A stretch of 21,238 nucleotides of DNA from Candidatus Odinarchaeia archaeon. GTDB taxonomy: Archaea; Asgardarchaeota; Odinarchaeia; Odinarchaeales; Odinarchaeaceae. How positions within the stretch are numbered: the stretch's first letter is position 1; each line of letters opens with the position of its first letter. The notes beneath the pieces are model-generated. The model had not been told where the DNA came from. It was given only the letters and a program-made list of their open reading frames with translations, and made no database searches. This document shows positions 7,545 to 8,632 of the stretch, one piece after another. The stretch spans positions 1 to 21,238 of the forward strand of contig JAHQXC010000016.1 in assembly GCA_029856525.1 (NCBI GenBank), read 5' to 3'. A program made the position numbers and the translations under genes.

Positions 7545-8632
7545 CTAGTATGTGACACTCCTCCACTCCACTCCAAGCTCATCAGCCAGTCTTCTCACTC
7601 TACTAACTTCTTCAATGTAAACGCGTCTAGATACATCAGAGTACCGGCTGTCGCTTATAGCAAGATAATAGGGCCTGTATTGAGCCATTATGTTAACAGG
7701 GGCTTTAGGCGTCTCCTTAGCTATCCACTCTAAGATAGGCTTCGAACAACACTCGTAATGGTTAGGTAATACTAGATGCCTGATGATGATAGATGAGAAG
7801 CCTTCAACTGAGTTAAGATAAGCTTTTTTAATATTCTCTGTAACTATTTTTAAATAATTATCAACGTTTGAAAGCCTTTTAGCGCATTCATCTGAACCGT
7901 ATTTAAAATCCGGCAGCCATAAATCAATCACATCTAGTAGAATACGCATCGTCTCAGTTGAATGATAGAAATTACTATTCCATATCTGAGCTATATTGAT
8001 ATCGCTTAAAATTAACGCTCCGAGTATAGTATACAAGTTAGGTGTAGGCTCACCTCCAACCCAGTTGATATTCCTCGCACCTGAACTGTATAAATCAGAT
8101 ATAATATAAGCTAGCTGGGTTTCACTTACAGGATACCCTGATCTAGGTTTAAAAGATATATCATAGTTCTGGCATTGCGTACACGCGTCTAAAGGCGCGT
8201 GTTATACGCGCATCTAAAAGTACACCCGCTGAAGAAAACAGTCCCGGATGGTATAAGCTGGCTTTCCTCCCCCATGTGTAGAAAATAAGATGAGACTCTA
8301 GCTGTTTTATTAACACCGCAAAACCCTGTGGCGCCGCTCAGCCTGTTAGCCTGGCATCTCCGCTCGCAGAGAATGCATTTCTCAAGTACCCGCTCGACTA
8401 TAATCTTTTTAACTTCAAGATAGTTTAACCCGTCGAAACCCTCCTTTTCGCTTTCACAGGGATTCAGCGCGGCTTTCTCATAGAATTCAGCGAATTTAGC
8501 AGCTAATCTCTCATGCACTCTCATCGCGTCATCGAATCCTATAGGCGTGGCGGTAGGCTCCCGGATTCTTTTACAGGTAAGATATTTAGCCGGCTTTATA
8601 TTTTTCACCACACTCTCGTAATGGGTGAACAT
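7545..8632 (-). CDS. PflX-like (COG1313-type) radical SAM protein, two exons: 8632..8204 and 8174..7545, predicted 352 aa after splicing
   Basis: Exon 1 has CILCERRC..RLSGATGFCG, HMGEESQL and GTVFFSGCTFRCAY. Exon 2 continues CQNYDIS..NINWVGGEPTP..WNSNFY..DFKYG..RHLVLPNH..NIMAQYRP. The two track ORFs (8189..8632 and 7545..8036) are halves of one gene. Confidence 0.88.
8175..8203 (-). other. 29-nt BHB-type mRNA intron
   Basis: RNA GC-GCGU-AU|A-ACACGCG-CCUUUAGA-CGCGUGU-ACGC-AA|U-GC: perfect 4-bp central helix, two 3-nt bulges, 7-bp intron stem. Removal gives TGC GCG TAT TGC CAG (CAYCQ). Confidence 0.88.

What the first reader, a model, noticed from the sequence alone, without database searches (positions are those of the whole stretch)
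8171..8212. BHB intron in a protein-coding gene, splitting the Fe-S motif of a PflX-like radical SAM enzyme
Seen in sequence: a 29-nt insertion (8175..8203) separates Cys2 (8212-8210) from Cys3 (8174-8172) of the CxxxCxxC motif, shifts the frame and contains a UAG (8191-8189). The RNA folds into a bulge-helix-bulge: central helix GCGU/ACGC, bulges AUA and AAU, inner stem ACACGCG/CGCGUGU, short 2-bp outer GC/GC. Established: the archaeal splicing endonuclease EndA cuts after the second nt of each bulge. Cutting there yields TGT ACT TTT AGA TGC GCG TAT TGC CAG AAC = CTFRCAYCQN and a continuous 352-aa protein. The classic archaeal pre-mRNA intron precedent is cbf5 in Crenarchaeota; I know of no described case in this gene family or in Asgard archaea. 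Inference: splicing gates production of the Fe-S enzyme, because unspliced mRNA gives a 147-aa product with only two motif Cys. Pipelines would call this a frameshifted pseudogene.
Basis: partly seen in the sequence, partly recalled or inferred. Interest (0 to 1): 0.95.

Follow-up and report, generated by a model that had tools for sequence, protein, structure and literature searches.

The report
tRNA-type intron inside an enzyme gene
A 29-base intron of the kind normally cut out of archaeal tRNAs interrupts the iron-sulfur motif of a radical SAM enzyme gene in an Odinarchaeia (Asgard archaeon) genome; it is kept, with compensating base changes, in every sequenced relative, which makes it one of very few protein-gene introns of this type and apparently the first reported in Asgard archaea.

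Summary
On the minus strand, 8203..8175 is a 29-nt insert between Cys2 and Cys3 of CxxxCxxC. It folds as a canonical h-B-H-B-h' motif. Cutting after the second nucleotide of each 3-nt bulge gives a 352-aa PflX-like radical SAM protein that aligns without a gap to uninterrupted homologues.

The main evidence is comparative:
- All six Odinarchaeia species genomes that hold the gene, plus two further assemblies, carry a 29-33-nt insert at the same codon boundary.
- The stem sequences differ but the geometry is the same: 98% of cells pair, 7 of 13 pairs show double (compensatory) changes, and 0 of 500 shuffles reach this.
- Both exons are under purifying selection. Synonymous sites are saturated, yet the intron differs at only 1-2 of 29 positions within the genus.
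- Jord-/Freyarchaeia carry a different BHB intron seven codons upstream. A Desulfurococcales homologue has an intein at the Odin site.
- The genome encodes a two-subunit EndA and RtcB. At least three more genes (kae1, an amidase, gcvPA) are split by BHB introns.

No RNA data exist, so splicing itself is inferred. Regulatory "gating" is untested. I found no publication describing this.

The parts
8204..8632 (-). Exon 1: 143 codons from ATG 8632-8630. N-terminal domain with a CxxCxxxC...C cluster, then the first two Cys of the radical SAM motif (TGT 8224-8222, TGC 8212-8210).
   Evidence: It aligns to residues 23-157 of the full-length homologue P0012. pN/pS is about 0.27 against LCB_4.
8175..8203 (-). 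29-nt BHB intron, phase 0. It contains the stop TAG 8191-8189 that ends the unspliced exon-1 frame.
   Evidence: Unique in the genome. Differs at 1-2 of 29 positions in the two congeners measured (LCB_4, L019), while synonymous sites are saturated.
8206..8209 (-). Central 4-bp helix H, 5' strand (GCGU, exonic). Pairs with 8177-8180.
   Evidence: 100% of cells paired across 8 lineages, with CG/UA/UG variation at one pair.
8177..8180 (-). Central 4-bp helix H, 3' strand (ACGC, intronic).
8203..8205 (-). 5' bulge AUA. Predicted cut between 8204 and 8203.
   Evidence: The cut-site rule comes from established EndA biochemistry. Only this register restores the frame.
8174..8176 (-). 3' bulge AAU. 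Predicted cut between 8175 and 8174.
   Evidence: The second bulge base varies (A, C or G) in relatives without loss of geometry.
8181..8202 (-). Intron hairpin h': 7-bp stem (8202-8196 with 8181-8187) and 8-nt loop (8195-8188).
   Evidence: Six of its 7 pairs show changes on both sides among relatives.
8210..8211 (-). Outer exon-exon helix h, 5' strand (GC). Pairs with 8172-8173. Only 2 bp, so this is a relaxed outer helix.
7545..8174 (-). Exon 2: 209 codons plus stop. It starts with Cys3 (TGC 8174-8172) and carries CQNYDIS, the GGEP motif and the rest of the radical SAM core.
   Evidence: Pfam Radical_SAM from profile position 14. 56% identity to residues 153-361 of P0012. pN/pS is about 0.13. 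The first start codon in this frame is TTG 8036, 46 codons after Cys3.

Best explanation
The gene 8632..7545 (minus strand) is one functional gene for a PflX-like (COG1313-type) radical SAM enzyme. It is interrupted by a 29-nt archaeal bulge-helix-bulge intron.

Proposed mechanism:
1. The pre-mRNA folds so that the last bases of exon 1 (GC-GCGU) pair with the intron's 3' segment (ACGC) and the first bases of exon 2 (GC). This presents two 3-nt bulges four base pairs apart.
2. The organism's two-subunit splicing endonuclease, the enzyme that processes its many tRNA introns, cuts after the second base of each bulge.
3. RtcB joins the exons and probably circularises the intron.
4. The mature mRNA then encodes CTFRCAYC, the complete [4Fe-4S]/SAM-binding motif, in a 352-aa protein.

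Shown here: the structure, the exact junction, conservation with covariation, selection on both exons, and the presence of the enzymes.
Inferred: cleavage and ligation in vivo.

The intron is most simply a long-fixed, efficiently spliced passenger, not a demonstrated regulator.
For: - Exact canonical geometry in the tRNA orientation.
- Removal restores the frame and the CxxxCxxC spacing. The spliced protein aligns gap-free with 10 other spliced and more than 70 uninterrupted homologues.
- All 6 of the 7 Odinarchaeia species genomes that hold the gene carry a 29-30-nt insert at the same phase-0 site. Two more assemblies carry 30- and 33-nt versions.
- Covariation on alignment A2: 98.1% of cells paired, 7 of 13 pairs with changes on both sides, 0 of 500 shuffles as high, and the signal collapses when partners are slid by one column.
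- Exons: pN 0.07-0.24 against pS 0.5-0.76. The intron changes at only 1-2 of 29 positions in the two congeners measured, and their stem changes are C to U giving G.U.
- It is the only copy of the family in the genome.
- EndA catalytic subunit plus a diverged paralogue lacking the catalytic His, and RtcB, are present. Asgard EndA is reported as the broad-specificity (alpha-beta)2 type (PMC5829648).
- The same genome has BHB inserts that rejoin Pfam profiles exactly in kae1 (TsaD 7-61 | 64-264), an amidase (2-153 | 156-445) and gcvPA (9-99 | 101-426).
- Shuffle test: 1 in 200,000.
Against: - There is no RNA evidence: no junction read, no circular intron, no peptide.
- The outer helix is only 2 bp.
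- In a 66-nt context the predicted minimum-energy fold is an alternative pairing, with an unremarkable z-score.
- The exon-2 tree does not place all site-A carriers in one clade. L006 sits apart on a long branch, and the AU test for a single clade gives p = 0.049. One ancestral gain is therefore not established.
Confidence: 0.88

Rival explanations
1. Frameshifted pseudogene: a random 29-nt insertion inactivated the gene, and the hairpin is incidental.
For: Unspliced, the frame stops at TAG 8191-8189 after 147 aa. Annotation of the closed LCB_4 genome does not join the halves.
Against: - Both halves are under strong purifying selection across species whose synonymous sites are saturated.
- The insert is kept at the same site in 8 lineages, with compensatory stem changes.
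- It is the sole copy of a gene that recurs across many archaeal phyla among the homologues recovered.
- The insert evolves more slowly than synonymous sites.
Confidence: 0.03
2. Split gene: two polypeptides (147 aa and about 210 aa) are translated separately and assemble into the enzyme.
For: In LCB_4 a GTG inside the insert allows a 217-aa ORF that includes Cys3.
Against: - That GTG is GCG in the window.
- Here the first start codon in the exon-2 frame is TTG 8036, 46 codons after Cys3 and past the GGEP motif.
- In the 30- and 33-nt versions the insert is in frame with an internal stop and no conserved start.
- Splitting a CxxxCxxC cluster ligand set over two chains has no precedent that I know of.
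- This reading does not explain the conserved BHB geometry.
Confidence: 0.03
3. Translational recoding: ribosomes bypass or frameshift over the insert, as in phage T4 gene 60.
For: A stable hairpin lies in a short coding gap with a stop codon.
Against: - There are no matching take-off and landing codons (UAU ... CAA-UGC).
- The stop is five codons after the junction, not adjacent to it.
- Insert lengths of 29, 30 and 33 nt need different frame changes (+2, 0, 0).
- The only feature common to all versions is the 3-4-3 bulge-helix-bulge with exact cut sites.
Confidence: 0.02
4. Assembly or sequencing artefact, or a recent insertion of a small palindromic mobile element.
For: The window comes from a 127-contig metagenome-assembled genome.
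Against: - The same insert is in the closed LCB_4 chromosome and in independent assemblies from other samples.
- An independent Logan contig of the run, possibly from the source sample, carries it unchanged at depth about 18.
- The 29-mer occurs once in the genome, even allowing 3 mismatches.
Confidence: 0.005
5. Sub-hypothesis of the first reader: the intron is a regulatory gate, and splicing efficiency controls how much Fe-S enzyme is made.
For: - Splicing is obligatory for a functional product.
- The intron sequence is more conserved within the genus than synonymous sites.
- Removal of a BHB intron in the 5' UTR of Haloferax HVO_1309 was reported to matter for expression (PMC7714728).
Against: - Conservation is explained by the need to keep the BHB fold.
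- No sensor element, alternative conserved fold or condition-dependent data exist.
- The alternative fold predicted uses intron bases that are not conserved in the 33-nt version.
- No function is known for the cbf5 intron either.
Confidence: 0.12

Closest known systems
cbf5 pre-mRNA BHB intron of Crenarchaeota (Watanabe et al. 2002; Yoshinari et al. 2006; Yokobori et al. 2009, PMC2738675)
   Same: A short BHB intron inside a protein-coding ORF. It is removed by the tRNA splicing endonuclease of the hetero-oligomeric type and shows lineage-specific presence.
   Different: Different gene (radical SAM enzyme, not a pseudouridine synthase) and different phylum (Asgard, class Odinarchaeia). It lies inside a metal-cluster motif. 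cbf5 itself is uninterrupted in this genome (TruB_N 1-148, 331-aa open frame). cbf5 splicing was shown experimentally; this one was not.
BHB intron in the 5' UTR of Haloferax volcanii HVO_1309 mRNA (PMC7714728)
   Same: An mRNA substrate of the archaeal splicing endonuclease other than tRNA or rRNA.
   Different: That intron lies in the untranslated leader and does not interrupt the reading frame. It was confirmed in vitro and in vivo.
Canonical and non-canonical BHB introns of archaeal pre-tRNAs
   Same: Identical geometry and orientation: exon helix, 4-bp helix, 3-nt bulges, cuts after the second bulge base. Similar length (12-60 nt) and the same enzymes. This genome's tRNA genes appear heavily interrupted: ARAGORN recognises only 19 tRNAs, 14 of them with introns.
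   Different: The host is an mRNA. The splice junction is constrained by a codon boundary and protein function instead of the tRNA cloverleaf.
Unconventional cytoplasmic splicing of HAC1/XBP1 mRNA (Ire1 cleavage, tRNA-ligase/RtcB joining) in eukaryotes
   Same: A spliceosome-independent mRNA intron, excised at two small stem-loop sites and sealed by the tRNA ligase. Splicing changes the reading frame of the product.
   Different: A different endonuclease and recognition motif. It is a proven stress-regulated switch, whereas no regulation is shown here.
Intein in the same gene family (Desulfurococcales MAG, locus L095)
   Same: An intervening element inserted exactly before Cys3 of CxxxCxxC. 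It must be removed to form the active site (...GILIHN|CQNYDIS; LAGLIDADG_3 domain).
   Different: It is removed at the protein level by self-splicing and is about 400 aa or more with a homing endonuclease domain. It is unrelated in mechanism and origin.

Membership tests
Archaeal BHB (EndA-dependent) intron | Two 3-nt bulges on opposite strands, separated by exactly 4 bp and flanked by helices (hBHBh'). | tested here: met
   Pair-by-pair check and strict motif finder. Outer helix 2 bp, H 4 bp, inner helix 7 bp.
Archaeal BHB (EndA-dependent) intron | Cuts after the second nucleotide of each bulge give a functional, precisely joined product. | tested here: met
   The joined ORF is 352 aa with the CxxxCxxC spacing restored and aligns gap-free. 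The neighbouring registers (27 and 25 nt) do not restore the frame.
Archaeal BHB (EndA-dependent) intron | The structure is maintained in evolution by compensatory changes. | tested here: met
   98.1% of cells paired, 7 of 13 pairs with double changes, 0 of 500 shuffles reach this, slid controls collapse.
Archaeal BHB (EndA-dependent) intron | The host encodes a splicing endonuclease able to use relaxed or non-tRNA substrates, and an RNA ligase. | tested here: met
   Two PF01974 genes. One resembles crenarchaeal catalytic subunits (3p1z_B, E 6e-44). The other is diverged and lacks the His. RtcB N-terminus lies at a contig edge. The substrate range itself comes from the literature (PMC5829648), not from a test here.
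Archaeal BHB (EndA-dependent) intron | Excision and exon ligation are observed in RNA. | not testable with these tools
   No RNA run is listed for this sequence. Only a DNA contig could be laid.
Radical SAM superfamily, PflX-like (COG1313-type) branch | CxxxCxxC cluster motif followed by the radical SAM core fold. | tested here: met
   The motif is present only after splicing. Exon 2 matches PF04055 positions 14-156 (24.5 bits, below the 29.5 cut-off for this fragment). The full-length homologue P0012 scores 55.9 bits plus Fer4_12.
Radical SAM superfamily, PflX-like (COG1313-type) branch | Orthology with proteins that sources name as putative pyruvate formate-lyase activating enzyme (PflX). 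| tested here: met
   1813 homologues, 50-58% identity over all of exon 2, many so named by JGI. The exon-2 tree places it within an Asgard group of the family. The biochemical function of the family is unknown to me and was not tested.
Glycyl-radical enzyme activases (PflA/PFLE_PFLC, TIGR02494) | Score above the family cut-off. | tested here: not met
   18.9 bits against a cut-off of 174. It is related, but not a true PflA-type activase.

The most novel reading that the evidence does not exclude
The intron is not a neutral passenger.

Odinarchaeia, and independently Jord-/Freyarchaeia, may keep a repertoire of EndA-spliced introns placed in conserved motifs of housekeeping enzymes. In this genome these are the radical SAM Cys motif, the Kae1 GPG segment, the amidase GSDTGGS segment and the GcvP TPYQ segment.

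They could serve one of two roles:
- a checkpoint that ties synthesis of these enzymes to the capacity of the tRNA-splicing machinery, or
- protection of highly conserved DNA sites from invasive elements. The same site carries an intein in Desulfurococcales.

This would be a standing mRNA-intron regime in Asgard archaea, the prokaryotes reported as closest to eukaryotes.
Probability: 0.15. Interest if true: 0.95.

Novelty: new member of a known kind. Interest (0 to 1): 0.85.

Why it matters
Since 2002, BHB introns in archaeal protein-coding sequence have been documented for one gene, cbf5, in Crenarchaeota. One further case sits in a Haloferax 5' UTR. This finding adds several things:

- **A second gene family.** It has class-wide conservation and formal covariation support.
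- **A new lineage.** It lies in Asgard archaea, where intron biology bears on ideas about the origin of eukaryotic gene structure.
- **Not an isolated case.** A different intron sits seven codons away in Jord-/Freyarchaeia, and at least three other genes in the same 1.3-Mb genome are split the same way.
- **Annotation consequences.** These genes are currently annotated as two hypothetical ORFs, for example in the closed Ca. Odinarchaeum yellowstonii genome. Gene counts, metabolic reconstructions and completeness estimates for these lineages are therefore affected. A BHB-aware gene caller would recover them.
- **Experimental access.** It gives a defined natural mRNA substrate for testing the specificity of Asgard EndA.

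Tried and rejected
- **RNA evidence.** No RNA holder is listed for the locus. The one run that holds it is DNA, possibly the source sample. Its contig carries the insert unchanged.
- **Thermodynamics alone.** The 66-nt fold gave an alternative structure with a non-significant z-score, so I relied on covariation instead.
- **Mobile-element idea.** The 29-mer is unique in the genome, even with 3 mismatches.
- **Genome-wide scans.**
  - The first loose scan (inner helix at least 4 bp, up to 200 nt) was dominated by noise: 393 hits against 78 in the control.
  - The relaxed short-intron scan was also noisy: 47 against 32. It is useful only where the joined peptide restores a recognisable motif. 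One hit there (C95:8599-8624) merely fuses two neighbouring genes, which I read from the peptides as LeuC/LeuD-like.
  - Only the strict scan ranked by energy separated signal from control.
- **Intronless or cDNA-derived form.** I looked for a full-length Odin-type protein among 5.8 billion proteins. None appeared. Every hit above 60% identity is a fragment.
- **Single origin of the site-A intron.** The tree and AU test are inconclusive.
- **Structure prediction.** I did not attempt it for the spliced protein, because the joined sequence is not a letter-for-letter product of the window.
- **Glycyl-radical activase membership.** Rejected on score.
- **One failed call.** Wrong frame for the EndA ORF, repeated correctly.

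Full report
**1. Observation**

Reading the minus strand shows TGT ACT TTT AGA TGC GCG TAT, then 29 bases (8203..8175), then TGC CAG AAC.
- In the upstream frame the insert brings TAG 8191-8189 into phase. This gives the 147-aa ORF 8189..8632 listed.
- Deleting 8203..8175 yields one ORF of 352 codons reading CTFRCAYCQNYDIS.
- I rebuilt the proposed pairing base by base. All 13 pairs are Watson-Crick: outer GC/GC, central GCGU/ACGC and a 7-bp inner stem. There are two 3-nt bulges (AUA, AAU) on opposite strands, four pairs apart.
- The orientation is that of canonical pre-tRNA introns. The 5' exon forms the outer and central helices, the first bulge follows, and the second bulge precedes the 3' exon.
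- In a 54-nt context this fold (-15.1 kcal/mol) is within 0.5 kcal/mol of the optimum, which is the same fold without the 2-bp outer helix.
- In a 66-nt context ViennaRNA prefers an alternative pairing, and the z-score is unremarkable (-1.64). Energy alone is therefore not the argument.

**2. Chance**

- Shuffling the 29 bases 200,000 times gave one case with an equally good BHB at the frame-restoring boundaries, and 183 with an inner helix of at least 3 bp.
- A strict BHB scan of the whole 1.32-Mb genome asked which candidates fuse two open frames of at least 70 codons that are otherwise interrupted. Ranked by BHB energy, it gave two clear outliers:
  - a 32-nt insert in kae1 (-16.4 kcal/mol);
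  - this one (-14.3 kcal/mol).
- The next candidate scored -5.1, and the best hit on reversed sequence scored -4.2.

**3. The gene**

- Exon 2 matches Pfam Radical_SAM from profile position 14 onward. Positions 1-13 hold the cluster motif, which lies mostly in exon 1.
- A protein search with exon 2 found 1813 homologues, mostly 320-366 aa archaeal proteins. JGI names many of them putative pyruvate formate-lyase activating enzyme.
- A full-length homologue (P0012) matches the window in two pieces, residues 23-157 and 153-361. There is no other close copy in the genome.
- It falls far below the cut-off for true glycyl-radical activases. 'PflX-like radical SAM enzyme of unknown substrate' is the right level of naming.

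**4. Relatives**

The nearest hit is Ca. Odinarchaeum yellowstonii LCB_4 (89% identity). There the gene is annotated as two ORFs of 147 and 217 aa.
- Its DNA has the same 29-nt insert with two changes: a stem C to U that gives G.U, and the second base of the 3' bulge.
- A class-wide genome search covered 7 Odinarchaeia species genomes. Six hold the gene, and all six are interrupted at the same phase-0 site.
  - The four congeners have 29 nt.
  - The two genomes of the other family have 30 nt with a different stem.
- Two further assemblies carry 30-nt and 33-nt versions whose inner stems share almost no sequence with the window's.
- In each case the 3-4-3 rule predicts a junction that restores GC..(R/K)CA(Y/H/F)CQNYDIS without gap or extra residue.
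- On an alignment of the eight BHB regions (A2), the structure pairs in 98.1% of cells.
  - 7 of 13 pairs have changes on both sides, including 6 of the 7 inner-stem pairs.
  - No shuffle of 500 reaches the observed covariation.
  - Sliding partners by one column drops pairing to 2-4%.

**5. Selection**

- Window against LCB_4 and against a third species: non-synonymous differences are 0.07-0.11 per site in exon 2 and 0.21-0.24 in exon 1.
- Synonymous differences are 0.50-0.76, which is saturated.
- Both halves are therefore maintained as coding sequence.
- The intron differs at only 1-2 of 29 positions in the two congeners measured (LCB_4 and L019). This is far less than synonymous sites, as expected if its fold is needed.

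**6. A second site and an intein**

- Among 80 homologous loci from named genomes, 72 read through the motif without interruption, counting L095 described below. Two more (L076, L082) are cut short by contig ends.
- Six are interrupted: one more Odinarchaeota MAG at the same site, and five others. The five are Jordarchaeia or Freyarchaeota, plus one labelled Thermoproteota that nests among them.
- Those five carry a different BHB intron of 27-31 nt, phase 1, seven codons upstream, inside ...PSGT|IFF... A sixth version of 32 nt comes from a Jordarchaeum assembly found by protein look-up (L008). The central helix is GCAC/GUGC, and six different inner stems occur.
- These carriers form one clade in the exon-2 tree (99/93).
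- Five Odin-type carriers also form a clade (100/99). The 33-nt carrier sits elsewhere on a long branch.
- An AU test of a single clade gives p = 0.049. I leave open whether the Odin site was invaded once or more than once.
- One Desulfurococcales homologue (L095) has roughly 400 residues or more ending ...GILIHN immediately before Cys3, with a LAGLIDADG domain. This is an intein at exactly the Odin intron site.

**7. Machinery and genomic context**

- The genome has two tRNA-intron endonuclease genes.
  - One is closest to the catalytic subunits of crenarchaeal heterotetramers. Its sequence shows what I read as the Tyr-His-Lys catalytic residues.
  - The other is diverged and lacks the His.
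  - This fits the (alpha-beta)2 type with the L1 loop reported for Asgard archaea, the type linked to relaxed BHB substrates and to cbf5 pre-mRNA splicing (PMC5829648).
- An RtcB N-terminus lies at a contig edge.
- ARAGORN recognises only 19 tRNAs, 14 of them with introns, in a 93%-complete genome. This suggests heavily interrupted tRNA genes.
- Three other genes are split by BHB inserts that rejoin a Pfam profile exactly:
  - kae1;
  - an amidase, probably GatA-like;
  - gcvPA.
- A 27-nt candidate in a UPF0147 gene also appeared.
- Earlier notes of this scan had flagged kae1, gcvPA, UPF0147 and a DUF355 kinase on other pieces of this genome. I confirmed the first two independently and saw the third.
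- cbf5, the classical host, is uninterrupted here.

**8. Rivals**

- **Pseudogene.** Excluded by selection and by conservation of the insert.
- **Split gene with two polypeptides.** There is no conserved start. Here the first start in the exon-2 frame is 46 codons beyond Cys3, and the GTG used by the LCB_4 annotation is GCG in the window.
- **Ribosomal bypass or frameshift.** It cannot cover inserts of 29, 30 and 33 nt, and there are no matching take-off and landing codons.
- **Artefact or recent mobile element.** Excluded by the closed LCB_4 chromosome, independent assemblies, the Logan contig and the uniqueness of the 29-mer.

**9. Literature**

- Full-text searches found cbf5 (Watanabe 2002; Yoshinari 2006; Yokobori 2009, PMC2738675) and the HVO_1309 leader (PMC7714728). 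The latter stated in 2020 that cbf5 was the only other mRNA example.
- A 2026 preprint on Asgard tRNA introns does not treat mRNAs.
- Nothing combined BHB with radical SAM, kae1 or Odinarchaeia.
- The library lacks most subscription journals, so prior description cannot be excluded.

**10. Not shown**

- Cleavage and ligation in vivo, the fate of the 29-mer, and any regulatory role are not shown.

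Noticed in passing
L018:985-1016 (= G000 C27:13284-13315, minus strand): A 32-nt BHB insert in kae1/tsaD, with an 8-bp exon helix and a central helix of G.U, G.U, G-C, U.G. 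The halves match the TsaD profile at 7-61 and 64-264, and the junction restores ...SQGPG|LGPCLR... It is the top-ranking hit of the genome-wide scan.
   Followed up: yes
L112:1070-1098 (= G000 C23:3669-3697, minus strand): A 29-nt BHB insert in an amidase-family gene, probably GatA-like. The halves match the Amidase profile at 2-153 and 156-445, and the junction restores GSDTGG|SVRQPA.
   Followed up: partly
L113:420-448 (= G000 C123:4019-4047, plus strand): A 29-nt BHB insert in gcvPA (central helix CCCC/GGGG, 9-bp stem, 1-bp outer helix). The halves match the GDC-P profile at 9-99 and 101-426, and the junction restores ...TAYTP|YQAE...
   Followed up: partly
G000 C13:17456-17482 (plus strand; not fetched as a locus): A 27-nt candidate BHB insert (GCAC/GUGU, AAA bulges) near the 3' end of a short ORF. 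Removal appends ...KIWNAVSILETISD. It matches an earlier scan note on a UPF0147 gene.
   Followed up: no
L003:2441-2471, L008:1497-1528, L010:1354-1384, L013:1462-1489, L061:1139-1165, L067:1138-1165 (also L021, L023, L090): Jord-/Freyarchaeia homologues carry a different BHB intron (27-32 nt, phase 1) seven codons upstream of the Odin site, inside PSGT|IFF. Six different inner stems occur. The carriers form one clade (99/93).
   Followed up: yes
L095:1-1200: A Desulfurococcales homologue has an intein (LAGLIDADG_3 domain, C-terminal ...GILIHN) inserted exactly before Cys3 of CxxxCxxC. This is the same site as the Odin BHB intron.
   Followed up: partly
L002:2067-3154 (Ca. Odinarchaeum yellowstonii LCB_4, CP091871.1): The closed reference genome annotates the gene as two ORFs (147 aa and 217 aa, 'hypothetical protein OdinLCB4_004700'). 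The second starts at a GTG inside the intron. The gene is therefore mis-annotated there.
   Followed up: yes
whole genome G000: ARAGORN finds only 19 tRNA genes, 14 of them with introns and some calls doubtful, in a 93%-complete genome. Most tRNA genes are probably too interrupted to be recognised.
   Followed up: no
L017:1-1311 (G000 C95, minus strand): The RtcB gene runs off the contig end. Only profile positions 1-50 match, within a 437-aa open frame. The rest may be an intein or other insert, with the remaining RtcB beyond the contig edge.
   Followed up: no
L057 (JBHLQC010000002.1, labelled Candidatus Odinarchaeota H3S.115): An uninterrupted copy that is nearly identical to the Hermodarchaeum yapensis sequence in the tree. 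The Odinarchaeota label of this MAG or contig looks wrong, so it should not be counted as an intron-less Odin.
   Followed up: partly
L114 (G000 C91:23876-24214): cbf5 (TruB_N 1-148, 331-aa open frame) shows no interruption. The classical crenarchaeal mRNA intron host is intron-free here.
   Followed up: partly
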